13,866 bases of DNA, from NCBI GenBank assembly GCA_964519555.1, contig CAZFJE010000074.1, positions 1-13,866 on the forward strand, given 5' to 3'. Positions 1 to 13,866 of this stretch are shown here, piece after piece. This stretch comes from an uncultured Thermoleophilia bacterium (GTDB lineage: Bacteria; Actinomycetota; Thermoleophilia; UBA2241). Every line of letters starts with the position of its first letter. The stretch's first letter is position 1. Both the position numbers and the translations under genes were made by a program. The notes under the pieces are model-generated. The model searched no databases. It was given only the letters and a program-made list of their open reading frames with translations, and had not been told where the DNA came from.

Positions 1-395
1 CGGCGAGGGCCAGGGACCGTCACCCTCACCCGTCGGCCATAGTCCACCCGGACGGCGGAGACAGGGCGAAGGGGGAGTTATTGCCTCGCTGCGAATAGGG
101 ACGCCGCTCTTTGAGGCTCAAGCGCGAGCGGGACGAAGCCGACAACTAACAGTAATAAAACCAAATGCCCGAGGCGCAACATGCCATTTTGCAGGGAGTG
201 CGGAGACCACATAGCCGAGAGTGACCAATTCTGTGTCAAGTGCGGCGCGACAACGCCGTCGGGCGCATCCGGCGAGCTACAGGCTAACGATGGACGTTCG
301 CCTCGAAAGCGACGCCTAGTCACCATTATTGTTGTGGCCGTGGTACTTGCCGTAATTTTGTGTGCGCTCGTGTTCGGCCTCGGACGTTCACATCG
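1..395. repeat. Left arm of a long imperfect inverted repeat (partner 13344-13741)
   Basis: The reverse complement of 13344-13741 aligns to 1-395. Identity is 62/64 over 81-144 vs 13601-13664, including a 44/44 perfect run (101-144 vs 13601-13644). Similarity continues inward through the start codon, zinc ribbon and TM helix of the 181-945 gene. It also continues outward, with indels, to position 1, so the arm is truncated by the window. Confidence 0.85.
81..144 (+). promoter_or_regulatory. Conserved upstream block of the zinc-ribbon gene (candidate promoter/operator)
   Basis: The block lies -100 to -37 from ATG 181, and a near-identical copy sits upstream of GTG 13566. It contains a nested palindrome, ccgctc-t-ttgag-g-ctcaa-gcgc-gagcgg, at 104-131. 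gggacg (130-135) is followed after exactly 17 nt by taataa (153-158). The right copy has gggacg, 17 nt, then tactaa (13610-13615 / 13587-13592 on the minus strand). GAGG at 171-174 is a plausible SD. The promoter assignment is speculative. Confidence 0.4.
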
Positions 396-945
396 TGACG
401 GTGACGCCCTCGCAACTGTTGCCACGCCAACTGCGGCGGCCACACCAGCCCCGGCCACATCCCCGTCGGGAGCTGCCCAAGCCTCTACCAGACTCCCGGG
501 AATCGGTGGTTCAAGGACTTTCTATGACAGCGCCTACCCTGATTTTGGATTGACCGCGACCGTGGACAACACAAAGACCCTCCCGCCCGTAGAGAACGAC
601 AGTATTTGGTCCGATGTCCCCAAGTACGCGTATGGGGTGCAGCTGACAATTGAGAACACTGGACAACAGAGCTATGACGATGATCTTTCAGTTACGGCCA
701 ACAGTACCCTTGGAATCGCTGGCATCTTCACCCTCTACGACACAGATGGCAACTCCCACGGTTGGAACGACGGGGGCGATTACCCTGACGTTCTGCACCA
801 TGTGCACGTCTTGCCGGGGGAGTCGATTTCCGGTTGGGTCTATTTCGGATCAGATAACTCAATCACGCCAGTCTCTTTTGAGTTTGCTCCGAATGACATA
901 CAGGACAATGTGACCTTCAAGCCAGGTGAGTGGCAACTGCAATAG
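181..945 (+). CDS. Zinc-ribbon / single-pass membrane protein with a beta-sandwich ectodomain (tentatively DUF4352-like)
   Basis: ATG is preceded by GAGG. The N-terminus MPFCRECG...DQFCVKCG is a CxxC...CxxC zinc ribbon. A basic stretch RKRR is followed by the TM helix LVTIIVVAVVLAVILCALVFGLG and an Ala/Pro/Thr linker. The C-terminal part (YGVQLTIENTGQQ...LPGESISGWVYF) resembles DUF4352-type Ig-like domains. The domain call is from memory of the family pattern. Confidence 0.8.
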   Translation: MPFCRECGDHIAESDQFCVKCGATTPSGASGELQANDGRSPRKRRLVTIIVVAVVLAVILCALVFGLGRSHRDGDALATVATPTAAATPAPATSPSGAAQASTRLPGIGGSRTFYDSAYPDFGLTATVDNTKTLPPVENDSIWSDVPKYAYGVQLTIENTGQQSYDDDLSVTANSTLGIAGIFTLYDTDGNSHGWNDGGDYPDVLHHVHVLPGESISGWVYFGSDNSITPVSFEFAPNDIQDNVTFKPGEWQLQ

Positions 946-1052
946 TGGCAGGGGGTCGCGCTCGCTAGCGTGGGCTTGCGGCCGGGTGGCTACGCTGGCG
1001 GGACGCCGATATTAGACAGTTGCCCGGCCGCAGAGTAATGCCCCGTGGGCCA

Positions 1053-2006
1053 TCACGATGGAGGCGCGCCGAAGTCACCAACTCCGTGCCATCGGTCGCC
1101 GCCGATGTTGACATGACAGCCAGCTAGCTGAAGGCGCTGCGCAAGCTGCTGTCGCTTGGAAACGGAGTCGTCGAGACGGAGGATGTGCCGACCTGCGATG
1201 TCACTGAAGGGGCGAACCGTGCCGAGCTGAACAAGCACGGTTCTCTTAGCGTCTCTGCCCATGGCCATTCCAGCCTCAAAGATGACATTCATTCGTGCTT
1301 GAGGCGTGAAAGACTTCTCATGATCGGGGTCGGAGGATTGCTGAAAGTCAGGCAGCAGTCGCCCTTCATCGTCTGGGGTTATCAAGACCACTACCGCGGC
1401 GGCTTGGTCGAATGCTATGTCGAGAATCTCGCCGACATATGGCGTTGGATGACCCGTCCCGGCAACCGCCTCAGACCACTCAATCGGATGTAAGTCGATG
1501 GCGGACAGGAAGTCAATCAGCGAGCGTGCCGCAGCAAGGTCTCGCCCATGGACAACAAAGACGTCGCGCGCGTCGGACGGCTCGCGGCCATTCTCCCTTG
1601 CCATCTCTTCAGCGGTTGCCCTGTCCACGGAGACCTCGGTTCCATTGGATCGCACCTGTGAGGCCATTAGCTCTAAGTGACGAACGGCCGCCTCAAGGAT
1701 TCCTTTTATCTGGTTGCGGTATTCGTGAAACACATGCTGGAAGTCGTTCTTTGAATGCCAGTTGCTGCTGCTCAATACATGATCATCATAATTCATGACC
1801 CGAATGGCAAAGATATTGGTCACGTTAGTGAACTTCACGGTGAGCGGATGATTGTCACCAAAAAGCGAACGCAGTATAAGTTCTGCGTCAGTCTGCCATG
1901 CGGAGAACTGAGATGTCCAAATGTTTACTTCAAGACGTTCTAGCTCGTCCAGTGATGTCTTTATTCTTACTATGGCGTCTGAATGGCTGATTCTGTTGTT
2001 CAACAA
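1053..2006 (-). CDS. TIR-like (Cap12/PycTIR-type) domain protein with an unknown N-terminal domain; putative NADase defence effector
   Basis: The C-terminal half (aa ~148-305, nt 1092-1565) reads DVFVVHGRD...LIDFL...PIEW...VVVLITPDDEG...ARMNVIFEAGMAMG...RPFSDIAG. This matches the bacterial TIR-like nucleotide-binding family pattern (VFIVHG / LLTPDD / RQNVxFExG). The conserved Glu is retained (E244, nt 1275-1277). The start is TTG at 2006 or 2003, after GGAGA. The N-terminal ~145 aa have no recognisable motif and are AT-rich. Confidence 0.72.
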   Translation of the reverse strand: MLNNRISHSDAIVRIKTSLDELERLEVNIWTSQFSAWQTDAELILRSLFGDNHPLTVKFTNVTNIFAIRVMNYDDHVLSSSNWHSKNDFQHVFHEYRNQIKGILEAAVRHLELMASQVRSNGTEVSVDRATAEEMARENGREPSDARDVFVVHGRDLAAARSLIDFLSAIDLHPIEWSEAVAGTGHPTPYVGEILDIAFDQAAAVVVLITPDDEGRLLPDFQQSSDPDHEKSFTPQARMNVIFEAGMAMGRDAKRTVLVQLGTVRPFSDIAGRHILRLDDSVSKRQQLAQRLQLAGCHVNIGGDRWHGVGDFGAPPS

Positions 2007-2054
2007 TTCTCCAGAAATCAGATTCTTATCACCGTCGCATCGGAGTCTCGGAGC

Positions 2055-2549
2055 TTAGGTGAGATCCAATGTTAGCGGCGTGCTCTCGTCGCTCTTGGTC
2101 TTTGGAGCCTTCTTGAAAGTCACATTTGTCTCCGACGACACCGGACTTTCGATCCGCGCCGAGCCGTCCAGTAACTTCGCGACTGTGAGAAGCTGAATGC
2201 GAGGATACGCGCTCTGCCCCTCCCATCCCGCGTGGTAGAAGCCCGCCGCCGCCGCGTCTTCGCGCATTGGCTTTGTAGGCTCCGGCATTGTGATGAGGAC
2301 ACCGATAGCGGCGCCCTCGCGTTCGATGACGCCGCGCAGCTCATGGACGTGGTGACGACCCGTGTGCCCGGCCTTCACGCTCAGAATGATTTGACTTGCC
2401 GCCTGTGCGCCGCCTTGCTCCGCAAACAGTACGTTGTATGTCGCGTTGGAGTTGAACGGCGGGTCGAGATAGACGAGGTCGACAGATTCGTCGGCTACAT
2501 AGCGCCGCAAGATGTCGAGATTGTCGCCGTAATAGAGCAGGTTGCCCAC
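2055..2549 (-). pseudogene. Internally deleted N4/N6 DNA methyltransferase remnant (motif IV region fused in frame to a C-terminal nuclease-like tail)
   Basis: NLLYYGDNLDILR...VDLVYLDPPFNSNATYNVLF is a typical MTase N-terminus with the DPPF motif. At about nt 2385-2390 it jumps directly to ...SVKAGH..VHELRGVIEREGAAIGVLITMPEPTKPMREDAAAAGFY...YPRIQLLTV. That sequence is the C-terminal REase-like tail seen in long MTases of this type. The AdoMet-binding FxGxG region is absent. The ORF stays open up to 2684, overlapping cas1, but GTG 2549 directly precedes the conserved N-terminus. Confidence 0.65.
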
Positions 2550-2601
2550 GGGGTGAACGCTATCACCGTGGCGAGACAGACGAAAGGAACGTGCGCGGCT
2601 C

Positions 2602-4155
2602 TCAAGGGGTTGCGGCCTCTGCGAGGCCTCGCAGCTTTTCCCAATGTCTCGGGTGCGGAATGTACCCCCGCCGAACCCTTGCACACATCGTCAGCGACAG
2701 CCCCGTCGCCGCCTTCATCTTGCGCAGCGACACACCCTCAAGCAGCGGCAGTATCTCGCGCCTGAATACAGCCGGGTCCGGCTTGTCGTGGGTTCGATCC
2801 CATTCGATTTCCTCGCGTCGCCGTTGTGCGGTGGCCTCACCGAGTTTGCGCCGCACTTCCGCGCTATCCATCGGTTCGCGACCCTCCGCGCGCATCTTGG
2901 CAAGCGCGGCAACCCCCGACGCCACGAATGCTATTTCCAGTTGTTGCCGTTCGCCGGGCAAGCAGTCGTCACAGAATTGGCGCTCGCTGTTCGGCAAAGG
3001 TCCGCCGCAAGTTGCGCAGGTCGCGGCCGGTCTGCGCGTCTGCGAGGATATCGGTCTCGTCGGCTTGCGGCGCACGGTGTCGCGCCCGCTGCTGCGGTTT
3101 GCCTGAGTTAGCGGCGTCGGTAGGCGTTCGATCCGCGATGGAGACTTCGAGGCGAGCATGCCCGCGACGTTCTCGACGACCGGCGCAATAGCGCGCGCCC
3201 ATTGAGTAGTCGTCTCCGCGAGGGTGTGCGTCAGGGGCGCAAGTACGCGGCAGACACCTTTTCTGGTCTCAACAAAGTCTTTAGCGGTAAAGGTGCGTGC
3301 CGCGAGCAAGTCGAGTAGATAGGCGTCGACCTGCGGGCGCACCGTTTCCATTAGGTCGAGCACTAATGAGTCGCGGGATTTCTGGTCCGCGTGAAATACT
3401 CCTAACCCCGGATCGAGCCCGCAGGCTAAACAGGCAAAGCGCGTCTCTGCCTCAAGCAATGCGTAGAGGTAATTGAGCATCGCATTTGCGGGATTAGCTG
3501 CGCGACGCGGCGACCCGGTAATCGGCGAGCCACGCTGCCCGAAATTACGCCAATGCTCAGGAGTTGATTTCTCGTCTTTCTTGGCAAAGCGCAGCGTGAT
3601 GTCTCGCCAGACTCCCCAATACGCCGCAGCGCCCGTCGATTCGGCCGTAAGCATTTCCGGCAAAGAAGCGGCATTATCGGCCATTATCCTCGCGGCGGTT
3701 AATTCGGCGGCAGCATTATCCGGGAATATCGACCGCGATAGATTAATTTCCTGACCGGCTAGCTTCGCGCAAAGCACATAGCGCGCTATTTTGAGGCCAG
3801 CGGTATTTGTCGGGGCGAGCGCCAGCGCGCGACGTAGGCGCGGATCGTTTAGCCCATAATTGGCGGAGGCCGCAATTACCTCGCCATCACGGTCGATCTG
3901 CAGAAATGCGATTCCGGCGTCGGTTAACCAGCGCAGCGCCTCGAGGCTAATTGCGCCCTCGTGGCCGACAATAATTAGCCGCTTTATGCCGACAAGTGCT
4001 TTCGCGAAGCTGCGCTCGCGACGAAAACGCCCGATGCCATCGGAGACAATCAGGCTGCGATTGCGAACCCGAACCTGGACGCCGTAGCCGTCGACCACGC
4101 AGACACCGCCCGCGCAGTCGAGGCTTTGGAAGGTTGCGCTAACATAGCTCTGCAT
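2602..4155 (-). CDS. cas1: Cas1-family integrase (stand-alone, casposase-like) with a C-terminal zinc ribbon + HTH extension
   Basis: Cas1 hallmarks are present: TAESTGAAAYW (E172), RRAANPANAMLNYLYALLEAE, and GLDPGLGVFHADQKSRDSLVLDLMETVRPQVD (H255, D267/E270). The N-terminal region (SLIVSDG...IKRLIIVGHEGAISLEALRWLTDAGIAFLQIDRDGEV) matches the Cas1 beta-domain pattern. The C-terminus has CATCGG...FCDDC (aa 380-398) and an HTH-like LRKMKAATGLSLTMCARVRRG (aa 477-497). An SD-like GAAAGGG precedes the ATG. Confidence 0.9.
   Translation of the reverse strand: MQSYVSATFQSLDCAGGVCVVDGYGVQVRVRNRSLIVSDGIGRFRRERSFAKALVGIKRLIIVGHEGAISLEALRWLTDAGIAFLQIDRDGEVIAASANYGLNDPRLRRALALAPTNTAGLKIARYVLCAKLAGQEINLSRSIFPDNAAAELTAARIMADNAASLPEMLTAESTGAAAYWGVWRDITLRFAKKDEKSTPEHWRNFGQRGSPITGSPRRAANPANAMLNYLYALLEAETRFACLACGLDPGLGVFHADQKSRDSLVLDLMETVRPQVDAYLLDLLAARTFTAKDFVETRKGVCRVLAPLTHTLAETTTQWARAIAPVVENVAGMLASKSPSRIERLPTPLTQANRSSGRDTVRRKPTRPISSQTRRPAATCATCGGPLPNSERQFCDDCLPGERQQLEIAFVASGVAALAKMRAEGREPMDSAEVRRKLGEATAQRRREEIEWDRTHDKPDPAVFRREILPLLEGVSLRKMKAATGLSLTMCARVRRGYIPHPRHWEKLRGLAEAATP
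2619..2634 (+). repeat. Perfect 16-bp palindrome ctgcgaggcctcgcag, followed on the plus strand by cttttcc (terminator-like in the plus orientation)
   Basis: Read directly from the sequence. It lies in the last ~10 codons of cas1. An overlapping alternative hairpin ggcctc-tgc-gaggcc sits at 2614-2628. A T-run follows only on the plus strand. Confidence 0.35.
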
Positions 4156-4173
4156 TTCGGAAACCCTTTCTTC

Positions 4174-4204
4174 CGAGTGCCACGCCCCCGGACCGCAGCC
4201 ACGG
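4174..4204 (-). terminator. GC-rich intergenic hairpin between the 387-aa gene and cas1 (attenuator, processing site or T-tract-less terminator)
   Basis: gcccccg-gaccg-cagcca-cggtc-g-cgggggc forms a 12-bp stem with one bulge and a 6-nt loop, 20 nt after the upstream stop codon. No U-tract follows on the minus-strand transcript. Confidence 0.35.
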
Positions 4205-4223
4205 TCGCGGGGGCACTTGTCTG

Positions 4224-5387
4224 CTAGGTCGAGTCTCCTGGTAGTCCGTCGGGGAAGAGCAGGGCCCTAGCCTCGGGATGAGTGACAAGAAAGCCACCGA
4301 CCCTCTCGGGGTCCTCCCGGGCGAACATCTGGACAGCGACCAGCAGACGCTTGAATTGATCCGCGTCGTGGAGGGTCGACTTCAGCCTGGCAGGCGTGAG
4401 CGTCTCGTCTTCGACGATCTCGGGGACTTCGGCCATGAGCTGCTCAAGGATGCCGATGAGCGGCGCGAGGTCAAGCACCGTACGGGTCCCCGGCACGGGC
4501 CGTGGTCCCCTGAAGGCTGGATCGTCGAAGAGCGGCTCCAAGACAAGCAACCAGCGCGCCTGGTCGACAGCATCGCTCGGCTGCAGTGCCGCGAAAAGAC
4601 TCTCGGCACTCTTGCCGCCCGCTTGCCGCGCCACGAAGCCGATTTGGCCGACTTCCACGAGCACCTGCTGGACGTGGTCGCGACAGCGGCAGAGGTCGTC
4701 ATCTGCGAGCGCCGCTAGGCGCTCCGAGTAGCAACCAGACAGCACACTTCGGGCAACCTCGCTGACTTCGACCACGTCGCCGCTGCCCAAGGCCTTTTGG
4801 CCAAGCAGCACACCGAAGAGAAACTGCAGGCCGAGCCCTTCGACGAGCCCAGAGGAAGTGCCGTCGCTCACGGGCGGTGCCAGCAGGGATGCCATGAAGC
4901 TCGGCAACCCACCCTTGCCGACCCGCCGTCTGGCTCGGGAGGCAAGCGCTTCGCTGGGTGCAAGCCGCACGTCCTCGCTATACCCGGCCTCGACGGCCGG
5001 CTGCAGCTCGTCCGGTGACTTTGTGCGAAGGGCATCGGCTCCACTGTCGACGCGCCGAGCCACCTCTTCGAGGAAGCCGCGAACGGTGGCCATCGGCACA
5101 TGGCAGCGCTCCCACCACAGATACCACGCAAGTAGGTCGTGACGGCGGGTGCGCTTCTCCTGGCGCAACTCGCAGATGCGCAGGAGGCGGTCAGCCGCTT
5201 CAGCTGGGTAGATGAACTTTCCGCTGCCGTGTTTCTTGCCTAGCCACTGACGATCGGGTGCCGGCAGCAACCCCTCGCGGTGCCACCTGGCGAACTGCAC
5301 GTCGCTCACGCGGTAGCCGCGCTTTGCAACGAGGCGAACCAGCTCCTGCTGCGTGTGACCGTCAGCCATGGACCGACTATACATCAT
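4224..5387 (-). CDS. Hypothetical protein with an N-terminal HTH-like region (element-specific, unknown function)
   Basis: A long ORF in the cas1 orientation, immediately upstream of cas1. The N-terminus TQQELVRLVAKRGYRVSDVQFARWHREGLLP looks like a wHTH/MerR-type helix-turn-helix. The rest is helical-looking with no motif I recognise. The start could be ATG 5387 or ATG 5369. Confidence 0.65.
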   Translation of the reverse strand: MMYSRSMADGHTQQELVRLVAKRGYRVSDVQFARWHREGLLPAPDRQWLGKKHGSGKFIYPAEAADRLLRICELRQEKRTRRHDLLAWYLWWERCHVPMATVRGFLEEVARRVDSGADALRTKSPDELQPAVEAGYSEDVRLAPSEALASRARRRVGKGGLPSFMASLLAPPVSDGTSSGLVEGLGLQFLFGVLLGQKALGSGDVVEVSEVARSVLSGCYSERLAALADDDLCRCRDHVQQVLVEVGQIGFVARQAGGKSAESLFAALQPSDAVDQARWLLVLEPLFDDPAFRGPRPVPGTRTVLDLAPLIGILEQLMAEVPEIVEDETLTPARLKSTLHDADQFKRLLVAVQMFAREDPERVGGFLVTHPEARALLFPDGLPGDST

Positions 5388-5480
5388 TACTTTAGACCGT
5401 GCATCTCAGCGTCGCTTTGGTGCCGCAAAATCGCCTCCTCTACGTTTAGCGCAAGCAGAAGACAAGCGTAGAGGTGACGT
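5388..5480. promoter_or_regulatory. Divergent control region between the leftward (387-aa gene, cas1...) and rightward (ParB-MTase...polB) gene strings
   Basis: This is the only sizeable intergenic gap between divergently oriented genes. It contains an AT-richer stretch ctatacatcattactttagacc. It also has an 8-bp inverted repeat, cctctacg (5437-5444) / cgtagagg (5467-5474), whose right half overlaps the GAGGTG Shine-Dalgarno of the 5481 ATG. Confidence 0.45.
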
Positions 5481-7085
5481 ATGGAAACCGACGAACGCAG
5501 ACCTCACCACGAGGCGCAATCGGGCGAGCAGGCTCCCCCCAGGCCGACCGGCCAGCCGGCCATGGTCGCCACGGGCAGCCTGCAGCCTCACCCGCTAAGC
5601 CTGGCCATCTACGGAGACGAAGCGGTCGACCTCGAGCTGGCTGCCAGCATCGCACAGCACGGCGTCCTCGAGCCACTCTCGGTCCTTGAGGACGGCACCA
5701 TCGTCTCTGGTCACCGCCGCTGGCGGGCAGCCCAGGCCGCCGGCCTTGCCAGTGTGCCGGCCACAGTCGTGAGCTTTGACGACCCCCTTGACGAGCACAC
5801 GGCCCTCATCGAACACAACCGCCAGCGCGTCAAGAGCTACAGCCAACGCATGCGTGAGGCCGACCAGCTCGAGACAATCGAGCGCGAGCGGGCCGAGCAG
5901 CGTCGGCGTCATCACGGCGGCACCGCCCCGGGGCGTTCGGCAGACACTGCCGGCAACATTGCCGGCAGTGAGGCCGGCGAGACCCGTGACAAGGTCGCCG
6001 CCGCAGTCGGCATGAAGGCGCGTAGCTTTGCCAAGGTGCGCAGCGTCTACAAGGCTGCCCAGCAGGGCAGCGAGGTCGCAGCCAAACAGCTGAGCGCCCT
6101 GGATGCCGGCGAGATCACGATCAACGCCGCCTACCAGGATGTGCGTCGCGAGGAGGCCGGACGCTGCACCACAGGCCTGGTCGATCCCGACGCAGCACCC
6201 CAAGCGCCGGAGCAGGTTACCAGCGAGCTCGGTGACCTCTGGATACTTGGCGAGCATCGACTTGCTTGCGGCGATGCCACCGACGCAGCGCTGGTGGACC
6301 GTCTGATGGCCGGCGAGCGGGCCGTGCTGATGGCCACCGACCCTCCCTATCTGGTCGACTACGACGGCGGCAACCACCCGCAGTCCTGGCGGCACAACGG
6401 CGAACACTCAGACCCGGAGACTCAGACCAAGCACTGGGATGCCTACGTCGACCAGCGTAGCGCCGAGGATTTCTACAGCGCCTACCTGGGCAGCGCCCTG
6501 GCCGAGGCACTCACTGAGCGTCCGACCATCTACCAGTTCTTCGCCATGATGCGCTTCGAGACCGTGCTGGCCGCTTGGCGGGCGAACGGCCTGCTTGCAC
6601 ACCAAGTTGTGATCTGGCACAAGAGCCGGATCGTGCTCGGTCGTAGCTGGTACATGTACGACTACGAGCCCTGCCTGGTCGGCTGGATCGCGGGCCGCCA
6701 GCCGGAGGCCGAGCGTCGTCCGCCGGCCAACGCCGCCGCCGTCTGGACCGTCGCCTCGACCGAGGGCAACGAGGCCACGATCTCGAGCCATCCCACGGTC
6801 AAGGCCGTCGAGCTCATTCGCCGGACGATTGCCTACCACACCCAGCCCGGCGAGCTGCTCTACGAACCCTTCGCCGGCTCGGGCACCGCCATAGTCGCCA
6901 GCGAGATGACCGGCCGGCGCTGCTATGCCGTCGAGCTTGCCCCGCTCTTTGTCGACCAGGCGGTGCTGCGCTGGCAGCGCTTCAGCGGCAAGCAGGCGAC
7001 CCTGCAGGAGAGTGGCCTCAGCTTCGCCGAGGTGGCCGCCCAGCGCGCCACAGGCGACCGTTCGGCATCTGCAGCGAGGCCCTGA
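5481..7085 (+). CDS. ParB-like nuclease domain fused to a beta-class N4/N6 DNA methyltransferase
   Basis: The N-terminus LQPHPLSLAIYGDE...HGVLEPLSVLEDGTIVSGHRRWRAAQAAGLASVPATVV is a ParB/Srx-type domain with the GHRR motif. The MTase part reads LGEHRLACGDATD...LMATDPPY (motif IV, aa 286-290), then HPTVKAVELIRR and EPFAGSGTA (motif I, aa 464-469). Motif IV before motif I is the beta-class order. GAGGTG SD precedes the start. Confidence 0.88.
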   Translation: METDERRPHHEAQSGEQAPPRPTGQPAMVATGSLQPHPLSLAIYGDEAVDLELAASIAQHGVLEPLSVLEDGTIVSGHRRWRAAQAAGLASVPATVVSFDDPLDEHTALIEHNRQRVKSYSQRMREADQLETIERERAEQRRRHHGGTAPGRSADTAGNIAGSEAGETRDKVAAAVGMKARSFAKVRSVYKAAQQGSEVAAKQLSALDAGEITINAAYQDVRREEAGRCTTGLVDPDAAPQAPEQVTSELGDLWILGEHRLACGDATDAALVDRLMAGERAVLMATDPPYLVDYDGGNHPQSWRHNGEHSDPETQTKHWDAYVDQRSAEDFYSAYLGSALAEALTERPTIYQFFAMMRFETVLAAWRANGLLAHQVVIWHKSRIVLGRSWYMYDYEPCLVGWIAGRQPEAERRPPANAAAVWTVASTEGNEATISSHPTVKAVELIRRTIAYHTQPGELLYEPFAGSGTAIVASEMTGRRCYAVELAPLFVDQAVLRWQRFSGKQATLQESGLSFAEVAAQRATGDRSASAARP

Positions 7086-7113
7086 GCCTCAGTACTTTTG
7101 GAGGGAGAAAGCC

Positions 7114-7728: not shown

Positions 7729-7739
7729 ACCGAGGAACC

Positions 7740-8204
7740 GTGGAGAAAGATCCCGCCAAGAACGACCGCCGCCGGTCGCGTCGTGCACGCAAGCTCGGCG
7801 AGGACGCTGCGTGCATTCTGTGCGGTTACCATCGTTGCCTCACAGGACTGAAGCAGGTGGACCGGCGCTTCCTTGAGGAGCACCACCTTCTTGGCTGGGT
7901 AACAGACGACACGCTCACCGCCTCTCTGTGCCGTAACTGCCACGCCGAGGTGACCGAGGATCAGCTCACTGACGGCTTCGACTTCAGGTCCGCAGAGCGG
8001 TCCGCCGAAGACGAGGCGAGGTACCTTCTGCTGGCAAGCGGGCGCTTCCTGTCGAGGCTCGGGCCGAGAATGACGGATGTCGCCTATCGGTTAGACTCCG
8101 GGACATGTCTGTCAGCGCCCGCGACATCCGCCCATGAGCCTCGAAAAGATCGCCCTGCGCGCCTACGGCGAACCAAGCGCCGGGGCGCGGCGCTCTACCA
8201 GTAG
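7740..8204 (+). CDS. HNH endonuclease
   Basis: CILCG...LEEHHLLG...LCRNCHAEV shows a CxxC...HH...N..CxxCH arrangement typical of the HNH/His-Me finger (nt ~7812-7964). The GTG start comes 11 nt after the preceding stop. The 3' end overlaps polB by 71 nt. Confidence 0.72.
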   Translation: MEKDPAKNDRRRSRRARKLGEDAACILCGYHRCLTGLKQVDRRFLEEHHLLGWVTDDTLTASLCRNCHAEVTEDQLTDGFDFRSAERSAEDEARYLLLASGRFLSRLGPRMTDVAYRLDSGTCLSAPATSAHEPRKDRPARLRRTKRRGAALYQ

Positions 8205-11200
8205 GTCGCGCAAGGGCTTCAAGCCGCGCCACGTTCTTATTTTCGACACGGAGACCACCATCGACGCCGCTCAGGCGCTGCTCTTCGGGTCGTATCGCTA
8301 CGTGCGTATCCGCTGGCAGGGCAATACGCCGACTCTCTCCACGGTCGAAGAGGGCCTGATCTACGCCGACGAGCTGCCCGATGAGAACGCCGAACGCTTT
8401 ACCGTCCTGCAGGACTACCGGGCAAGCCACCCGGCGGCGCTCGATCCCACCTACAGCCACGGCCTGCCGGTCGCGCTCAGGTTCTACTCCCGCCGCGAGT
8501 TTCTCACGGAGATGTTCTATCCGGCGGTCTACGAAAGCAGGGCTTTGGTCGCCGGCTTCAACCTGCCCTTCGATCTCTCTCGCCTGGCCGTCGACTGGTC
8601 GGCGGCACGCAAGGCATTCGCGGGTGGATTCTCGCTGGCCGTCTTTGAGTACGAAAAGGACGGCGTCTGGCGCGAGAACCGCTTCAAGCCCCGCATCGTC
8701 GTTAAGTCAATCGACAGCAAGCGTGCGCTCAAAGGCTTCGCCGGCACCTTCTCACCCGACGAGATCGACACGATCCCCGAGGGCGAGACCGAGCCCGCAG
8801 AGGGCTACATCTTTCGCGGCAACTTCCTCGACCTGCGCACGCTGGGCTTCGTGCTCACCGACAAGGGCCACACTCTGGAGTCGGCGTGTGAGGCCTTCGG
8901 CGTTGAACACGGTAAGACCAAGCCCAACAAGCACGGCGAGATCACACCCGAGTACATCGACTACAACCGCCGCGACGTGCTGGCCACAACCGAGCTGCTT
9001 GAAAAGACACTTGCCGAGTACTACCGCCACCCGGTCGACCTGCAGCCCACGCAGGCCTACTCGCCGGCTTCGCTCGGCAAGGCCTACCTGCGCGCCCTCG
9101 GTATCGCTCCGGTACTCAACCGCCAGTCTGACTTTCGTAAGGACGTGCTCGGCTATGCCATGCAGGCCTACTTTGGCGGGCGGGCCGACTGTCGCCTGCG
9201 TCGCCTGCCCGTGCCGGTCGCGTATACCGACTTCACGAGCATGTACCCGTCCGTCAATGCCCTTATGGACAACTGGCGGCTGCTCACCGCGAAGCGCATC
9301 GAGGTTCTCGACGCCACACGCGAGGTTCAGGAGCTGCTTGCCCGCGTAACTATCGACGACTGCTTTGCTCCCGAGCTGTGGCCGCAGCTGCGTGTGCTCG
9401 TCAAGGTGCGGCCTTCAGGTCAGCCCCTGTCTACCCGCGCCCGCTACGACCGTCGCCGCGTCCCCGCCTCCGCCAAGGCACGCAATAAGGAGCGCCAGGG
9501 CCAAGGCTGGCAGATCGGCATCAACTACCTGACAAGCGAGAAGCCGCTGTGGCTCGCCCTGCCCGACCTCATCGCCGCGAAGATCCTAGGCGGCAAGGTG
9601 CCCGAGGTGCTCGAGGCTTGGAACCTCGTGCCGGTCGGCAAACAGTCCAGCCTCTCGGCGGTCGAGCTGCGCGGCTCGATTGCGGTTGATCCAACCAAGA
9701 CCGACTTCTTTTGCACAGTCATCGAAGAGCGCCAGCGCGTGCGCGCGAAGGCCAAGGCCGACGGCCGTGAGAACGATCCGCTGGAGGGTTTCCTCAAGGT
9801 GCTCGCCAACTCGACAAGCTACGGCGTCTTTGCCGAGTTCGTGCGTCACGAGCTGACCGGCAAGCGCACCGAGTCGGTGCGTGTCTGGGACACCGAGGGC
9901 GAGAGTTTCGCCGCAAAGACGCACGCCCCCGAGCTGCCGGGCGAGTACTGCTTCCCGCCGCTTGCCGCCTTCATCACCTCGGCGGCGCGCCTCATGCTGG
10001 CCTTGCTCGAGGCCCGCGTCACAGAGCGCGGTGGTAGCTACGTCTTTTGCGACACCGATTCCATGGCGATTGTGGCAGACGAGGAGCCCCACCTCATCGA
10101 ATGCCCCGGCGGACCGCATCTGACCGACGAGGGCAAACCGGCCGTGCTCGCCTTAGGCTGGGATGAGGTCGACGAGATCCGCGAGCAGTTTAACCGGCTC
10201 AACCCCTACGACCGAAGCGCCGTGCCAGCCCTCGTTAAGATCGAAAGGGAGAACTTCGACGACAAGGGGCGGCGCGTGCCGCTGTTCTGCTACGCGATCA
10301 GCGCCAAGCGCTATGTGCTCTTCTACAAAGACAAACGGGGAGAGCTGTCAATGCCCAAGGCCTCCGAGCACGGCCTCGGCCACCTGCTCAACCCTTACGA
10401 CCCCGACGAGGGCAACCGCATCGAAGACGGCGCTGCAGCCGATGGCAAGAGCAAGCCCAACTGGATCAAGGAAGCCTGGCACGACATCCTCGCCAAGGAA
10501 GTGACCTTGCGGGCCGCCAAGTCGCCTTCGTGGTGGCACGAGCCGGCCCTTGTTCGCATCACGATCTCAAGCCCTGCGGTGCTCGAGCCCTTCGGGGGCA
10601 TGAACACGGTCAAGCCCACCTACCGCGAGCGCGTGAAGCCCTTCAACTTCATGCTCTCGGCGCGGATCGAGGATTTCGGCTATCCGCTCGAGGTGACCGA
10701 CCCTCACCACTTCCATCTGGTCACGCGCTACACGCGCAAGCCGCGCGAGGCGCTCAAGGTCACCTGGTTCAACCGCTACGACGGCAAGCCGTACCGCGTG
10801 ACCATCGGAAGTTCGTCCGACCTTGCCGGCCAGGCCCGCATCCTCACCTACGGCGAGATGCTTGAGGACTACCGCTACCGGCCGGAGTACAAAAGCACTG
10901 CGCCGGACGGACAGACTTGCGGCCGGGAGACATCCGGTCTGCTAGGTAGGCGGTCGATTGAGGCTCTCAAGTTCATCTATGTCGGTAAGGAGTCAAACCG
11001 CCTCGAGGAAGCGCAGCAAGGCCTGCTGCACGATGAGGAAGAGGCGCTCAGCGAGTTCGACGATCCGCGCCACAGCGACTTTTGCGAGTTCGTGCTGCCG
11101 GTGCTTGCCACGATGCCGCTGTCGGTGTTGGCCACAGCGACCGGGCTACATCCGAGCACACTCAAGAGGATTCGAGCCGGGACGGCGCAGCCGCGTACTA

Positions 11201-11436
11201 ACAACGAAGACGCCCTCTGGGTGGTCGCCATCGAACACGCGCGGGCGGAGCTTACGAGGCGCGGTTTTCAGCTGCCTGAGACGCACCTTGCGGCGTTGCG
11301 CGTCTACATCGAAGCGATGTCAGCCCAGCCGCGGCAGTGCCCAGTCTGCGGGGAGCCGATGGTCAGCAGGCGTCAAAGGTATTGCAGCAACAGATGCCGC
11401 CAGCGAGCGGTACGTGCTCGGTCTCGAGCGAACTGA
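8134..11436 (+). CDS. polB: Family B DNA polymerase with 3'-5' exonuclease domain and a ~350-aa C-terminal extension ending in HTH + zinc ribbon
   Basis: Exonuclease motifs: ExoI IFDTETT (D38/E40, nt 8245), ExoII GFNLPFDLSRL, ExoIII YIDYNRRD. Polymerase motifs: motif A YTDFTSMYPS (D366, nt 9229), motif B KVLANSTSYG (K555, nt 9796), motif C YVFCDTDS (D640/D642, nt 10051), and KxY AKRY (K725). The C-terminus has LSVLATATGLHPSTLKRIRAG and CPVCGEP...RYCSNRCRQRA. Confidence 0.92.
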   Translation: MSLEKIALRAYGEPSAGARRSTSRSRKGFKPRHVLIFDTETTIDAAQALLFGSYRYVRIRWQGNTPTLSTVEEGLIYADELPDENAERFTVLQDYRASHPAALDPTYSHGLPVALRFYSRREFLTEMFYPAVYESRALVAGFNLPFDLSRLAVDWSAARKAFAGGFSLAVFEYEKDGVWRENRFKPRIVVKSIDSKRALKGFAGTFSPDEIDTIPEGETEPAEGYIFRGNFLDLRTLGFVLTDKGHTLESACEAFGVEHGKTKPNKHGEITPEYIDYNRRDVLATTELLEKTLAEYYRHPVDLQPTQAYSPASLGKAYLRALGIAPVLNRQSDFRKDVLGYAMQAYFGGRADCRLRRLPVPVAYTDFTSMYPSVNALMDNWRLLTAKRIEVLDATREVQELLARVTIDDCFAPELWPQLRVLVKVRPSGQPLSTRARYDRRRVPASAKARNKERQGQGWQIGINYLTSEKPLWLALPDLIAAKILGGKVPEVLEAWNLVPVGKQSSLSAVELRGSIAVDPTKTDFFCTVIEERQRVRAKAKADGRENDPLEGFLKVLANSTSYGVFAEFVRHELTGKRTESVRVWDTEGESFAAKTHAPELPGEYCFPPLAAFITSAARLMLALLEARVTERGGSYVFCDTDSMAIVADEEPHLIECPGGPHLTDEGKPAVLALGWDEVDEIREQFNRLNPYDRSAVPALVKIERENFDDKGRRVPLFCYAISAKRYVLFYKDKRGELSMPKASEHGLGHLLNPYDPDEGNRIEDGAAADGKSKPNWIKEAWHDILAKEVTLRAAKSPSWWHEPALVRITISSPAVLEPFGGMNTVKPTYRERVKPFNFMLSARIEDFGYPLEVTDPHHFHLVTRYTRKPREALKVTWFNRYDGKPYRVTIGSSSDLAGQARILTYGEMLEDYRYRPEYKSTAPDGQTCGRETSGLLGRRSIEALKFIYVGKESNRLEEAQQGLLHDEEEALSEFDDPRHSDFCEFVLPVLATMPLSVLATATGLHPSTLKRIRAGTAQPRTNNEDALWVVAIEHARAELTRRGFQLPETHLAALRVYIEAMSAQPRQCPVCGEPMVSRRQRYCSNRCRQRAVRARSRAN

Positions 11437-11698
11437 CTTTCCGATGCCTTGGGGGGCGCAGCGCAATCTCACCCTTCACGTCTCTGCCATCGCCACCGCA
11501 GAGGTCGTCGGTGACGCCCGCATGGGTAAGGCGTCTGATCTGGCGACCTGCCGTCCCGATTACCTCACGCGCAGGTACCATATCGATCTGGTTCCAGTCG
11601 AAGTCACTGATCGGTCGACTGTCGAAGGTGCAGTTGGTGAAATCCACAGTGTCGAAGCTAGCCAAGGTCTGCGGTGCGCGGTGCAGGGTGAAGGCCAA
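11363..11698 (-). pseudogene. Possible pentapeptide-repeat protein fragment (low confidence)
   Basis: A TTG-initiated ORF. Residues F15, F20, F25, I30, W35 and M40 (LASFD TVDFT NCTFD SRPIS DFDWN QIDM; nt 11579-11656) show strict 5-residue hydrophobic periodicity, as in pentapeptide repeats. The ORF tail runs 74 nt antisense into the polB 3' end, which is unusual for a genuine gene. Confidence 0.25.
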
Positions 11699-12423: not shown

Positions 12424-13566
12424 CTAGGGTCGAGTGGCGGGAATGGTGACGCCGCTATCTCCCACCGCCCACCCGTGGTTGACATCCGCGAAGGCCACTG
12501 CCTCGGGTTCGTTTGTGCCTGTACTTTGGAGGGTCCAATGGGTGCCACGGTCGCTACTTGAAAGGATGACGCCGCCGGTGGTGTTGTCAGCGCCCACGGC
12601 CCATCCATGCGAGCTATCGGCGAAAGAGACACTGTAAAGCTGGGCAGTCGTACCTGAGCTCTGCACATTCCAGGTAGCGCCGCCGTCGGTGGTGCCAAAT
12701 ATGGTTCCGTTGTCGCCCACTGCCCAGCCGTGCGAAGCATCAGCGAAAGAGACACCACGGAGCGTGCTTGCGGTACCCAAGTCTTTCGCGTCCGGGCCGA
12801 AGCCATGCTGCACGTTCCAGGTAGCGCCGCCGTCGGCGGTGGCAAGTATGGTGCCGTTGTCGCCCACCGCCCAGCCGTGCGAAGCGTCGGAGCAGGTGAC
12901 GGCGTTAAGGCCCGGAGTCGTGCCCGGGTCCTGGGCGCCCCAAGTGGCGCCGCCGTCGGTGGTTCCCAAGATGACGCTCGAGCGTGTCGAGGGGTCCACG
13001 CCCACCGCCCAACCGTGAGACGGATCGGCAAAGGAAATACCGCTGAGGAAACTCGTCGTGCCCGGGTCCTGGGCGCTCCAAGTTACACCACCGTCGGTGG
13101 TTACCAAGATGACGCTCGCACCCGTCGTCGAAGTGTCATCGCCCACCGCCCAGCCGTGCGAGCGATCGACGAACCAGACACCAAAAAGCTGAGCTGTCGT
13201 ACCCGAATTTTGCGCCCCCCAGGTAGTGCCGCCGTCGGTGGTGGCAAGGATTGTGCCACCGTCACCCACTGCCCAGCCGTGAGAAGCATCGCCGAAGCAG
13301 ACACCATGAAGCGTTTGGGTAGTCGGGTGGGCAACGCGATAATGATGCGAATGTCCCATGCCAAACACGAGCGCACACGCGATGGCAGCAAGTACGACGA
13401 CAACGACACCAATGAGGATGGCGCGGTGTCGTCTTCGGGTGGGGCGGGCTTCGCTGGCCTGAGGCTCGCCGGGCACAGCGGACGGTGTTGCAATCGCGGC
13501 GCCACATTTAGCGCAGAATTGGTCGCTTTCCACCGTGAGGTTGCCACACTGTCTGCAAAATGGCAC
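12424..13566 (-). CDS. Zinc-ribbon / single-pass membrane protein with a seven-bladed beta-propeller ectodomain (BNR/Ycf48-like repeats)
   Basis: GTG 13566 (VPFCRQCG...DQFCAKCG) aligns codon-for-codon with ATG 181 of the left paralogue. The TM helix is AILIGVVVVVLAAIACALVFGMG. Seven repeats of D.SHGWAVG....I..TTDGG.TW..Q follow. The listed ORF extension up to 13806 is Arg/Gly-rich and lies in the conserved non-coding block. Confidence 0.85.
   Translation of the reverse strand: MPFCRQCGNLTVESDQFCAKCGAAIATPSAVPGEPQASEARPTRRRHRAILIGVVVVVLAAIACALVFGMGHSHHYRVAHPTTQTLHGVCFGDASHGWAVGDGGTILATTDGGTTWGAQNSGTTAQLFGVWFVDRSHGWAVGDDTSTTGASVILVTTDGGVTWSAQDPGTTSFLSGISFADPSHGWAVGVDPSTRSSVILGTTDGGATWGAQDPGTTPGLNAVTCSDASHGWAVGDNGTILATADGGATWNVQHGFGPDAKDLGTASTLRGVSFADASHGWAVGDNGTIFGTTDGGATWNVQSSGTTAQLYSVSFADSSHGWAVGADNTTGGVILSSSDRGTHWTLQSTGTNEPEAVAFADVNHGWAVGDSGVTIPATRP
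12427..13314 (-). repeat. Intragenic tandem repeats (7 propeller blades, about 40-49 codons each)
   Basis: The SHGWAVG / NHGWAVG motif occurs seven times. The blade copies starting at 12670 and 12817 (147 nt apart) share 64/69 nt over the first 69 nt in my hand alignment. Confidence 0.8.
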
Positions 13567-13741
13567 GCAACGCCTCCGACGCAGGGTTAGTACAACATAC
13601 TGTCGGCTTCGTCCCGCTCGCGCTTGAGCCTCAAAGAGCGGCGTTCCTCTTCGCAGCGAGGCAAGAAACACCCCTTCGGCGCGTCTCCGCCGCCCACGGT
13701 GACGGTGGGGGGTGACGTTGTCCCGACGGCCGGACGCCGAG
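13344..13741. repeat. Right arm of the long imperfect inverted repeat (partner 1-395)
   Basis: See the left arm. The inner limit is where ...tgtgcgctcgtgtttggcatgggacattcgcatc stops matching 361-394. The outer limit is set only by the left window edge, so the true arm may be longer. Confidence 0.85.
13601..13664 (-). promoter_or_regulatory. Right copy of the conserved upstream block (candidate promoter/operator)
   Basis: 62/64 identical to the reverse complement of 81-144. 13601-13644 is a perfect 44-nt match. The block lies -35 to -98 from GTG 13566. The same nested palindrome maps to 13614-13641. Confidence 0.4.
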
Positions 13742-13866
13742 CCCCCGATCCGTCGGCACCCGTTGCACCCGCTCCATCCTGTCTGTGCCTGAGCCCCCGA
13801 ACCCAACCCCCGCAGCCCCGCCCGTACGCGGGCTCCCGGCCCTCGTGCGACGACCGTAGGGCAAGG

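What the first reader, a model, noticed from the sequence alone, without database searches (positions are those of the whole stretch)
1053..2006. Stand-alone TIR-like (Cap12/PycTIR-type) effector with an AT-rich orphan N-terminal domain, co-oriented with cas1
Seen: aa ~148-305 read DVFVVHGRD..LIDFL..PIEW..VVVLITPDDEG..ARMNVIFEAGMAMG..TVLVQLG..RPFSDIAG. The N-terminal ~145 aa match nothing I recognise. That half is compositionally distinct: my hand count of 1741-1980 gives 105/240 G+C (44%), against 41/60 (68%) for 6301-6360. Known: this pattern is the bacterial TIR-like nucleotide-binding domain used as an NAD+-degrading effector in CBASS (Cap12) and Pycsar (PycTIR). The Glu of the NVxFExG motif is the catalytic residue, and it is retained here as E244. 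Such effectors normally pair with a cyclase, but the window contains no CD-NTase, pyrimidine cyclase or ThsA-like gene. Inference: this is either a single-gene sensor-effector (abortive-infection type) with a novel sensor domain, or an effector responding to a signal made elsewhere. Because it continues the cas1 gene string, it may be defence cargo of the element.
Basis: partly seen in the sequence, partly recalled or inferred. Interest (0 to 1): 0.75.

Follow-up and report, generated by a model that had tools for sequence, protein, structure and literature searches.

The report
Casposon-borne single-gene TIR NADase candidate
The ORF is a real, intact bacterial TIR-like (NAD-cleaving type) protein of an already catalogued but untested one-gene defence-candidate family (PADLOC PDC-S35), and it rides as cargo inside a Cas1/PolB self-synthesizing transposon (casposon) of an actinobacterium: a solid, fairly ordinary find in an unusual vehicle.

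Summary
ORF 1053-2006(-), probable start TTG 2003 (316 aa), carries a PF10137 CAP12/PycTIR TIR domain (E 1e-27). The model is confident (pLDDT 83) and its best PDB match is bacterial TIR-STING. F149, W176, R237, N239, E243 and D268 are invariant in 72 homologues and are spaced like the SfSTING NAD+ pocket.

The N-terminal 120 aa form a four-helix bundle. It is rare, with one close relative among 1.84 billion representatives, but it is not an orphan. On its own it matches the N-terminal part of PADLOC model PDLC05005 (PDC-S35, E 2e-7).

Over 2,000 homologues combine this conserved TIR core (55-65% identity) with at least 12 unrelated N-termini. They are solitary genes in restriction-modification/toxin-antitoxin islands, integrase islands and actinobacterial plasmids, and none sits beside a cyclase.

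The low G+C of the N-terminal half is real (45% vs 58%) but mostly reflects amino-acid composition.

The window is a near-complete 14.1-kb casposon: Cas1, PolB, and about 580-nt terminal inverted repeats with 98 nt perfect. The gene lies inside it, next to an internally deleted methyltransferase. Related casposons lack it.

Best reading: a single-gene abortive-infection NADase carried as casposon cargo. It is a new member of a known kind, and its function is untested.

The parts
1053..2003 (-). Complete gene for the 316-aa TIR-like protein (the ORF as listed runs to TTG 2006; the stop codon is 1053-1055)
   Evidence: ORF list and translation. An identical protein is called from 2003 in seven metagenome samples. 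GGAG lies at 2009-2012.
1644..2003 (-). N-terminal four-helix bundle, aa 1-120: putative sensor or regulatory module, of the PDC-S35 PDLC05005 type
   Evidence: AF2 on this domain alone gives pLDDT 86 and pTM 0.80, with helices 7-23, 31-48, 53-69 and 82-119. PADLOC PDLC05005 positions 4-103 match at E 1.8e-7. phmmer against 1.84e9 representatives finds only P0002. Foldseek against PDB finds only generic helical bundles, E >= 0.3.
1566..1643 (-). Low-confidence linker, aa 121-146
   Evidence: pLDDT is below 50 for residues 122-138.
1170..1562 (-). TIR-like catalytic domain (PF10137), aa 148-278
   Evidence: Pfam E 1.1e-27. Alpha/beta fold with pLDDT 85-98. The top Foldseek PDB hit is 9lmr_B, a TIR-STING fibre, with prob 1.00 and E 4.4e-3; TRIF TIR also matches.
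1275..1277 (-).
   Evidence: It is read directly and is invariant in 72 homologues. It lies in helix 238-254, the alphaC position. The R237-x-N239-x3-E243 spacing equals SfSTING R78/N80/E84.
1056..1169 (-). Conserved C-terminal extension beyond the Pfam domain (aa 279-316; RRQxLAxRLxxAGCxVNxxGxxWHxxGDF)
   Evidence: R284, Q285, A288, R290, L291, C296, G302, W305, G309 and F311 are invariant or nearly invariant. A helix spans 281-293.
2055..2549 (-). Upstream neighbour: 164-aa in-frame internal-deletion remnant of a DNA methyltransferase of about 586 aa (DPPF motif joined to an Mrr-like C-terminus)
   Evidence: Residues 3-52 align with MTase residues 8-57, and residues 53-130 with MTase residues 481-558. 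Pfam gives NA-iREase1/Mrr_cat, and PADLOC gives MTase N-terminal hits.
2602..4155 (-). Casposase (Cas1, 517 aa)
   Evidence: PF01867 E 1e-37. PDB hits include the M. mazei casposase 6opm. It is 67-68% identical to the Cas1 of two TSD-flanked casposons in an Actinomycetes MAG.
4224..5387 (-). Unknown 387-aa protein heading the cas1 gene string
   Evidence: No family hit. It is 25% identical (E 0.002) to the positional equivalent in the related casposon L011.
8134..11436 (+). Family B DNA polymerase (1100 aa) of the casposon
   Evidence: PF03175 E 3e-8. It is 46-48% identical over its full length to the PolB of casposons L011 and L012.
1..394 (.). Left terminal inverted repeat (truncated by 189 nt in this contig)
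   Evidence: It pairs with 13343-13866. The near-identical 14,098-bp JGI contig extends both ends to a perfect 98-nt inverted repeat.
13343..13866 (.). Right terminal inverted repeat (truncated by 43 nt in this contig)

Best explanation
The gene encodes a stand-alone, one-protein abortive-infection-type immune effector. It is a member of the PADLOC candidate family PDC-S35 (subtype PDLC05005).

A conserved PF10137 TIR-like domain with an intact NAD+ pocket is fused, through a flexible linker, to a fast-evolving N-terminal four-helix bundle.

Proposed mechanism (inferred):
- In uninfected cells the N-terminal bundle keeps the TIR domains apart or inactive.
- A phage-derived cue recognised by the bundle drives self-association.
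- TIR-TIR packing then completes a composite active site, with E243 acting in cis and the invariant D268 loop in trans, as in TIR-STING filaments.
- NAD+ is hydrolysed and the infected cell stops supporting phage replication.

The gene is accessory cargo of an actinobacterial casposon. It sits in the variable region between cas1 and the left terminal inverted repeat, beside a decayed restriction-modification methyltransferase. The transposon therefore spreads it, and presumably gains from protecting its host.

Shown: domain identity, fold, conserved residues, family membership, solitary defence/mobile contexts, and location inside the casposon.

Inferred: NADase activity, activation by oligomerisation, the sensor role of the N-domain, and the anti-phage phenotype.
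For: - PF10137 scores 96.8 bits, E 1.1e-27.
- PADLOC PDC-S35 PDLC05005 matches at E 4.7e-29 over aa 9-300. The N-domain alone matches at E 1.8e-7.
- The AF2 model has pLDDT 83 with TIR topology and E243 in alphaC. The best PDB fold match is a TIR-STING fibre, prob 1.00.
- F149, W176, R237, N239, E243 and D268 are invariant in 72 homologues. The spacings F->W (+27) and R-x-N-x3-E are identical to SfSTING F6/W33 and R78/N80/E84, and D110 acts in trans there (PMC9402430).
- 2,039 homologues were found. The TIR core is 55-65% identical, while the N-termini of the top 112 fall into at least 12 unrelated BLAST clusters. This is the conserved-effector/variable-sensor pattern.
- Homologue contexts are defence or mobile. 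One lies between hsdS and hsdR with toxin-antitoxin pairs. One lies among PhD-PIN and MNT-HEPN pairs. One lies next to an integrase and excisionase. One lies near HicA and an Eco57I/AccI R-M system. Others are IS-flanked or beside relaxase genes on Actinomycetota plasmids. No cyclase or ThsA is adjacent in any of them.
- A systematic TIR survey likewise treats standalone TIR proteins as likely NAD+-depleting effectors rather than signal producers (bioRxiv 10.64898/2025.12.03.692087).
- The gene lies inside the inverted repeats. Related casposons with TSDs lack it and carry other cargo at that position.
- The gene's GC3 is 0.59 against 0.73-0.83 for the casposon core.
- The protein is identical in seven metagenome samples.
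Against: - There is no experimental evidence for PDC-S35. The term occurs in no paper of the held library.
- No solved structure is detectable by sequence, even with a profile. The active-site mapping therefore rests on motif spacing plus a Foldseek match of modest E-value (4.4e-3), not on a residue-level superposition.
- The N-domain gives only generic helical-bundle fold matches, so its sensor role is pure inference.
- Inter-domain geometry is uncertain (pTM 0.56). No multimer model could be made.
- The gene could be transcribed with cas1 (51-nt gaps, and no convincing promoter or terminator). This leaves room for a transposon-related role.
Confidence: 0.6

Rival explanations
1. It is an effector of a nucleotide-signalling system encoded elsewhere in the host genome (CBASS, Pycsar, Thoeris or type III CRISPR). 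The N-terminal bundle would then be the ligand sensor.
For: PF10137 is the TIR type used by Cap12 and PycTIR effectors. The PADLOC PycTIR and CBASS TIR effector models hit the TIR part at E 5e-6 to 7.5e-4. The host chromosome is not in the window.
Against: The PycTIR model matches only its TIR part (positions 145-269 of 288). The N-domain is a four-helix bundle with no SAVED, STING, CARF or cNMP-binding signature. None of the eight or so homologue neighbourhoods contains a cyclase. A mobile element would lose its trigger on moving to a new host.
Confidence: 0.1
2. It is a signal-producing TIR (ThsB-like) that makes a cADPR-type messenger for an effector encoded elsewhere.
For: Many bacterial TIRs are signal generators, and the catalytic Glu is intact.
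Against: No ThsA-like or other effector is adjacent here or beside homologues. ThsB proteins belong to other Pfam families (PF08937/PF13676), whereas PF10137 forms its own clade (bioRxiv 10.64898/2026.04.30.722052). Standalone TIRs were excluded from the survey of signalling TIRs as probable effectors.
Confidence: 0.07
3. It works for the casposon rather than against phages. It could be an addiction or kill-switch module, a weapon against competing mobile elements, or a regulator tied to transposition, expressed from the cas1 gene string.
For: It is co-oriented with cas1 with short gaps. No independent promoter or terminator was found. Three archaeal casposons carry divergent Sir2-like genes, another NAD-using family (PMC4046053).
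Against: The two closest casposons (Cas1 67-68% identical) lack the gene, so it is dispensable for transposition. Homologues occur widely outside casposons. Its GC3 marks it as a later acquisition.
Confidence: 0.1
4. The TIR-like fold is used for a different glycosidic-bond chemistry, such as a nucleotide or nucleoside N-glycosidase or deoxyribosyltransferase of the MilB/DRTase type acting on nucleotides or DNA, rather than for NAD+ hydrolysis.
For: TIR, MilB-type hydrolases and related folds share the alphaC glutamate (PMC9402430, Extended Data legend). NCBI names homologues only 'nucleotide-binding protein'.
Against: The best fold match is a bona fide NADase TIR. The nicotinamide-stacking residues F149 and W176 and the phosphate/ribose residues R237 and N239 of the SfSTING NAD+ pocket are all conserved.
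Confidence: 0.08
5. It is an inert passenger: a decaying gene in a decaying cargo region with no current function.
For: Its immediate neighbour is an internally deleted methyltransferase.
Against: The ORF is intact, every family-invariant residue is kept, the model is confident, and the sequence is identical in seven samples.
Confidence: 0.05

Closest known systems
PADLOC phage-defence candidate PDC-S35 (models PDLC05003-05007; best match PDLC05005)
   Same: Full-length architecture: a variable N-domain of about 100-145 aa, a PF10137 TIR core and a conserved C-terminal tail. The match is E 4.7e-29 over aa 9-300, and the N-domain alone matches at E 1.8e-7. Homologues are solitary genes in defence or mobile contexts.
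   Different: The N-domain is a rare, divergent variant. It is 17-21% identical to the other PDLC05005-type N-domains and has about 25 extra residues (aa 65-95). Only one close relative exists among 1.84e9 representatives. It is carried by a casposon. The family itself is only a computational candidate.
Cap12 / TIR-STING (SfSTING), a CBASS effector
   Same: The same Pfam TIR family (PF10137). It is the best structural match. The NAD+-pocket residues have the same spacing, and there is a candidate trans-acting Asp. Activation is probably by oligomerisation.
   Different: There is no STING (or SAVED) cyclic-nucleotide receptor domain and no CD-NTase operon. The order is reversed, with the TIR C-terminal to the accessory domain. 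Sequence similarity is too low for phmmer or profile detection against PDB.
PycTIR, the Pycsar effector
   Same: A C-terminal PF10137 TIR preceded by an N-terminal region of about 145 aa. The PADLOC PycTIR model matches the TIR part at E 5e-6.
   Different: The N-terminal part of the PycTIR model is not matched. There is no pyrimidine cyclase gene in the window or beside homologues.
Family 3 (bacterial) casposons, e.g. the Streptomyces albulus, Henriciella marina and Nitrosomonas AL212 elements (Krupovic et al. 2014, PMC4046053)
   Same: The vehicle has Cas1 casposase, PolB, an HNH-like ORF, a methyltransferase and long TIRs. Relatives have 12-nt TSDs. Casposons are already known to carry defence-type or NAD-linked cargo (Sir2-like genes, REase, MTases).
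   Different: In the paper library searched here, no paper combines the terms casposon, TIR domain and defense. Assignment to family 3 was not tested by phylogeny. PolB hits only PF03175, and weakly.

Membership tests
Pfam PF10137 CAP12/PycTIR TIR domain | HMM score above the curated gathering threshold | tested here: met
   96.8 bits against 24.7, E 1.1e-27, HMM positions 2-118 of 119.
Pfam PF10137 CAP12/PycTIR TIR domain | Flavodoxin-like TIR fold | tested here: met
   AF2 pLDDT is 85-98 across the domain, with a beta-alpha topology. The Foldseek top PDB hit is TIR-STING 9lmr_B (prob 1.00, E 4.4e-3), and TRIF TIR 9dk8 also matches.
Pfam PF10137 CAP12/PycTIR TIR domain | Catalytic Glu in alphaC plus NAD+-pocket residues | tested here: met
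   E243 is invariant and lies in helix 238-254. The R237-x-N239-x3-E243 and F149->W176 (+27) spacings equal SfSTING R78/N80/E84 and F6/W33. This is an indirect test by motif spacing, not a residue-level superposition.
Pfam PF10137 CAP12/PycTIR TIR domain | NAD+ glycohydrolase activity | not testable with these tools
   This needs an enzyme assay.
PADLOC PDC-S35 (single-gene defence candidate) | Full-length match to a family HMM, including the N-terminal region | tested here: met
   PDLC05005 matches at E 4.7e-29, aa 9-300 against model positions 4-258 of 264. The N-domain alone matches at E 1.8e-7 against positions 4-103.
PADLOC PDC-S35 (single-gene defence candidate) | Solitary gene with no conserved partner, in defence or mobile neighbourhoods | tested here: met
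   Eight neighbourhoods were examined, and the neighbours differ in each. The contexts are type I R-M/TA islands, an integrase island and plasmids.
PADLOC PDC-S35 (single-gene defence candidate) | Demonstrated anti-phage activity | not testable with these tools
   No paper in the held library mentions PDC-S35.
CBASS effector (Cap12 TIR-STING / TIR-SAVED) | Adjacent CD-NTase gene | tested here: not met
   No CD-NTase is present in the window or in homologue neighbourhoods.
CBASS effector (Cap12 TIR-STING / TIR-SAVED) | Cyclic-oligonucleotide receptor domain (STING or SAVED) fused to the TIR | tested here: not met
   The non-TIR part is a 120-aa four-helix bundle. It has no Pfam hit and only generic bundle fold matches.
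Pycsar effector PycTIR | Adjacent pyrimidine cyclase, and homology to the PycTIR N-terminal sensor region | tested here: not met
   No cyclase was found. The PycTIR model is matched only at positions 145-269 of 288.
Thoeris ThsB | Operon with a ThsA-type effector (SIR2-SLOG, Macro, TM and others) | tested here: not met
   No such gene is present in the window or beside homologues.
Casposon (the element carrying the gene) | Cas1-family casposase together with a family B DNA polymerase | tested here: met
   PF01867 E 1e-37, and PDB casposase 6opm is hit. PolB is 1100 aa, with PF03175 at E 3e-8, and is 46-48% identical to the PolB of TSD-flanked relatives.
Casposon (the element carrying the gene) | Terminal inverted repeats enclosing the genes | tested here: met
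   The inverted repeat pairs 1-394 with 13343-13866. The 14,098-bp twin contig ends in a perfect 98-nt inverted repeat.
Casposon (the element carrying the gene) | Target-site duplication flanking the TIRs | tested here: inconclusive
   Both contigs stop at or inside the TIRs, so no flank is available. The relatives L011 and L012 have 12-nt TSDs, TCAACAGGAGCC and GTCAAGCGGCAC.

The most novel reading that the evidence does not exclude
A currently mobile actinobacterial casposon, from the transposon lineage thought to have given rise to CRISPR adaptation, has captured a one-gene TIR NADase immune module. The module's rare four-helix-bundle N-domain would directly recognise a phage component, or a state of the element itself. 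The capture happened at a cargo slot that earlier held a restriction-modification gene. Casposons would then be vehicles and exchange platforms for innate immune genes, and this N-domain a previously uncharacterised pattern-recognition module.
Probability: 0.3. Interest if true: 0.55.

Novelty: new member of a known kind. Interest (0 to 1): 0.38.

Why it matters
If the protein is an autonomous NADase, it adds a compact, testable sensor-effector of 316 aa to the TIR immune repertoire. Its specificity module, a 120-aa helical bundle, swaps among at least 12 types on a nearly constant catalytic core. That makes it a convenient system for asking how TIR effectors are switched on without a second messenger.

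It also documents a TIR immune gene as casposon cargo, next to a decayed R-M methyltransferase. This extends the 'mobile elements carry defence' rule to Cas1-based self-synthesizing transposons.

Neither point overturns current views. The family is already listed as a PADLOC candidate, and defence-like cargo such as Sir2-like genes, REase and MTases was noted in casposons in 2014.

Tried and rejected
1. Sequence searches of the full protein and of a 72-sequence profile against all PDB chains found nothing. The catalytic-residue alignment therefore had to be made by fold match and motif spacing.
3. The BFVD viral fold search and tblastn against 50,697 phage genomes gave no meaningful match. Only one unannotated PHROG, 16442, hits the TIR part.
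4. Weak phmmer hits of N-domain residues 37-65 turned out to be TPR_10/TPR_12 proteins. Pfam detects no TPR in the N-domain, so this is kept only as a lead.
5. The idea that the 164-aa upstream gene (Pfam NA-iREase1) is a sensor partner of the TIR protein was rejected. It is an in-frame internal-deletion remnant of a methyltransferase, and it is absent beside homologues, including the closest one, P0002.
6. The idea that the low-GC N-half marks a recent domain swap was weakened. GC3 differs little (0.53 vs 0.61), and P0002 shows no such contrast.
7. The promoter/terminator scan of 850-2700 was at chance level.
8. Cas1-based scans returned only two close casposons in genomes and two distant loci in metagenomes. 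None has a TIR gene.
9. Literature searches for PDC-S35 and for casposon with TIR domain and defense returned nothing.
Full report
**1. The observation**

The minus-strand ORF 1053-2006 is real. A GGAG at 2009-2012 favours the second TTG (2003) as the start. Gene callers in seven independent metagenome samples call the same 316-aa protein from there, with an identical sequence.

Pfam PF10137 (CAP12/PycTIR TIR domain) is hit at 96.8 bits against a cut-off of 24.7, E 1.1e-27.

The N-domain codons are 45% G+C, the C-domain 58% and the contig 62.5%.

**2. The protein**

An AlphaFold2 model built on 72 homologues is confident (mean pLDDT 83). It has three parts:
- a four-helix bundle (helices 7-23, 31-48, 53-70 and 82-120);
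- a disordered linker (residues 122-138);
- an alpha/beta domain with TIR topology.

The best PDB fold match of the model is the bacterial TIR-STING/c-di-GMP fibre 9lmr_B (prob 1.00, E 4.4e-3, 157 columns). A second true TIR, TRIF, also appears. Sequence and profile searches of PDB find nothing, so this lineage is remote from every solved TIR.

In the 72-sequence alignment F149, H152, G153, R154, W176, R237, N239, E243, D268 and others are invariant. The SfSTING paper lists F6, W33, R78, N80 and catalytic E84 as the NAD+ pocket, completed in trans by D110 of the partner subunit (PMC9402430). The F->W distance (+27) and the R-x-N-x3-E pattern are identical here. D268, in the family's 'PFSD' loop, lies 25 residues after the Glu, against 26 in SfSTING. 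E243 lies in helix 238-254, the alphaC position that carries the catalytic Glu in all TIR-like hydrolases. The catalytic apparatus therefore looks intact. This is an indirect mapping, not a residue-level superposition.

**3. The N-terminal domain is rare but not an orphan**

- phmmer of aa 1-144 against 1.84 billion representatives finds one true relative, P0002, at 58% identity. The other five weak hits are TPR_10/12 proteins that match only residues 37-65.
- Iterative search among the N-termini of the top hits adds P0017, P0022, P0091 and P0049.
- The N-domain on its own matches positions 4-103 of PADLOC model PDLC05005, one of five models of candidate system PDC-S35, at E 1.8e-7.
- The whole protein matches that model at E 4.7e-29 over aa 9-300.
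- Modelled alone, the domain is a confident four-helix bundle (pLDDT 86, pTM 0.80). It has only generic bundle matches in PDB, E >= 0.3.

**4. The family**

There are 2,039 homologues at E <= 1e-3. The TIR core plus a conserved 35-aa C-terminal tail is 55-65% identical across them. The N-termini of the top 112 fall into at least 12 unrelated BLAST clusters. One type dominates, the 'YFHV' type with 91 members, which corresponds to model PDLC05007. Some members of about 400 aa carry an extra C-terminal domain. A constant effector joined to a swappable N-terminal module is the pattern expected of sensor-effector immune proteins.

**5. Neighbourhoods of homologues**

| Homologue | Context |
|---|---|
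| P0050 | Between hsdS and hsdR of a type I R-M operon, among toxin-antitoxin pairs |
| P0014 | Between PhD-PIN and MNT-HEPN pairs |
| P0049 | Between a tyrosine integrase and an excisionase-like HTH gene |
| P0017 | Near HicA and an AccI/Eco57I R-M pair |
| P0022 | Beside an HNH_2 gene |
| Plasmid homologues | Actinomycetota mobilizable plasmids, IS-flanked or next to relaxase genes; named only 'nucleotide-binding protein' |

No cyclase, ThsA or other recurrent partner appears in any of them. None is in a housekeeping operon.

**6. The surroundings: a casposon**

The window encodes:
- a Cas1 (PF01867, E 1e-37), whose PDB hits include the M. mazei casposase 6opm;
- a 1100-aa family B polymerase;
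- an HNH-like ORF;
- a ParB-methyltransferase fusion.

The two ends of the window are inverted repeats, 1-394 against 13343-13866. A near-identical 14,098-bp JGI contig extends the window by 189 nt on the left and 43 nt on the right. That contig ends on both sides in the same perfect 98-nt inverted repeat. The element is therefore about 14.1 kb, with TIRs of about 580 nt that decay inward to 70-85% identity.

The closest relatives are two elements in one uncultured Actinomycetes MAG, with Cas1 67-68% and PolB 46-48% identical. They are bounded by TIRs of 382 nt (perfect) and 64 nt, and by 12-nt target-site duplications. They are bona fide integrated casposons.

Neither relative has a TIR-domain gene. 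The slot between cas1 and the nearer TIR holds other cargo there, namely BNR-repeat genes. The TIR-domain gene lies 1.2-2.2 kb inside the left terminus, so it is accessory cargo of this casposon.

Its GC3 (0.59) is well below that of the core genes (0.73-0.83). This points to later acquisition of the whole gene.

The immediate upstream gene (2055-2549) is not a partner. Its residues 3-52 align with residues 8-57 of a 586-aa plasmid methyltransferase, and residues 53-130 with residues 481-558. It is an in-frame deletion of the catalytic core, i.e. a decayed R-M remnant.

**7. Mechanism**

Most likely (0.6) this is an autonomous abortive-infection NADase. The variable helical bundle senses an infection cue or holds the protein inactive. 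Self-association then brings TIR domains together, the D268 loop completes the neighbour's E243 site as in TIR-STING filaments, and NAD+ is depleted.

The steps shown are domain identity, fold, conserved pocket, family membership, solitary defence/mobile context and casposon location. Catalysis, activation mode, trigger and phenotype are inferred.

The rivals are each disfavoured but not excluded; the evidence is set out under the rival explanations:
- an effector for a signal made elsewhere (0.10);
- a ThsB-like signal producer (0.07);
- a casposon-serving addiction or competition module (0.10);
- a different glycosidase chemistry (0.08);
- an inert passenger (0.05).

**8. Comparison with known systems and novelty**

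It works like the TIR effectors of CBASS and Pycsar. It fails their membership tests, having no cyclase and no STING, SAVED or PycTIR N-terminal homology. It passes every sequence-level test for PADLOC PDC-S35, a catalogued but apparently untested single-gene candidate.

Casposons were already reported to carry Sir2-like genes, a restriction enzyme and methyltransferases (PMC4046053). The paper-library search for casposon with TIR domain and defense returned no paper.

I therefore rate it a new member of a known kind, with a rare N-domain variant and an unusual vehicle. Interest is moderate (0.38): a good experimental candidate, not a surprise.

Noticed in passing
window 1-13866; loci L016 and L019: The whole window is a nearly complete casposon. 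A near-identical 14,098-bp JGI contig extends it by 189 nt on the left and 43 nt on the right, and ends on both sides in a perfect 98-nt inverted repeat (GGTGCCACGGGTCCTGAG...). The contig probably equals the element. No flank or TSD is available. The same element occurs in at least seven metagenome samples.
   Followed up: yes
window 2055-2549 (-): A 164-aa gene annotated NA-iREase1/Mrr-like is an in-frame internal deletion of a DNA methyltransferase of about 586 aa. The N-terminal DPPF motif is joined directly to the C-terminal Mrr-like domain. It is a decayed restriction-modification remnant in the cargo slot.
   Followed up: yes
window 181-945 (+) and about 12424-13566 (-): The terminal inverted repeats contain the upstream regions and the first 70 or so codons (an MPFCxxCG zinc ribbon) of two inward-facing paralogous genes. 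Their downstream parts differ: DUF4352-like on the left, BNR/Ycf48-like repeats on the right. The related casposon L011 carries three BNR-repeat genes. The role of these genes in a casposon is unknown.
   Followed up: partly
window 11880-12150, within gene 11741-12346 (-): This is the second low-GC patch, at 41-44% G+C, the lowest in the window. It lies in a zinc-ribbon/SHOCT-domain gene with GC3 0.56, and is another probable foreign cargo gene at the opposite end of the element.
   Followed up: no
window 8134-11436 (+): The casposon PolB (1100 aa) matches only PF03175, the organellar/viral protein-primed type, and weakly (E 3e-8). It has a C-terminal treble-clef/YacG-like zinc ribbon and no PDB hit by sequence. 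Its PolB class, and hence the casposon family, was not resolved.
   Followed up: partly
window 5481-7085 (+): A ParB N-terminal domain is fused to an N6/N4 DNA methyltransferase (534 aa). It matches PADLOC MTase_II PDLC03229 at E 4e-61. It is an orphan methylase on the casposon, with the highest GC3 of the element (0.82).
   Followed up: no
window 1809-1895 (aa 37-65 of the TIR protein): The segment WQTDAELILRSLFGDNHPLTVKFTNVTN weakly resembles a TPR_10/TPR_12 repeat unit. The only extra phmmer hits are TPR_12 proteins, at E 2e-5 to 9e-4. Pfam does not call a TPR here. It is a possible clue to the origin of the helical bundle.
   Followed up: partly
homologues P0050 and P0058 (same 2.6-Mb contig); P0014, P0022 and others: The family shows domain shuffling. 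There are at least 12 N-terminal types, and forms of about 400 aa carry an extra C-terminal domain of about 110 aa. Plasmid versions have the TIR core at the N-terminus. Two paralogues with different architectures occur in one genome.
   Followed up: partly
loci L011 (184-14641) and L012 (about 2405-14715): Two different casposons lie in one uncultured Actinomycetes MAG (CAVYCN01). They share the terminal motif GGGATAGGGGATAGGGA and have similar 12-nt TSDs, TCAACAGGAGCC and GTCAAGCGGCAC. This suggests a preferred target sequence.
   Followed up: partly
window 7740-8204 (+) versus 7725-7943 (-): Gene callers chose a 72-aa minus-strand ORF here. The plus-strand 154-aa ORF, which gives weak HNH/ZorE and DUF7097 hits, is conserved in both related casposons (30-38% identity). 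It is more likely the real gene, and it overlaps the PolB start by 71 nt.
   Followed up: partly
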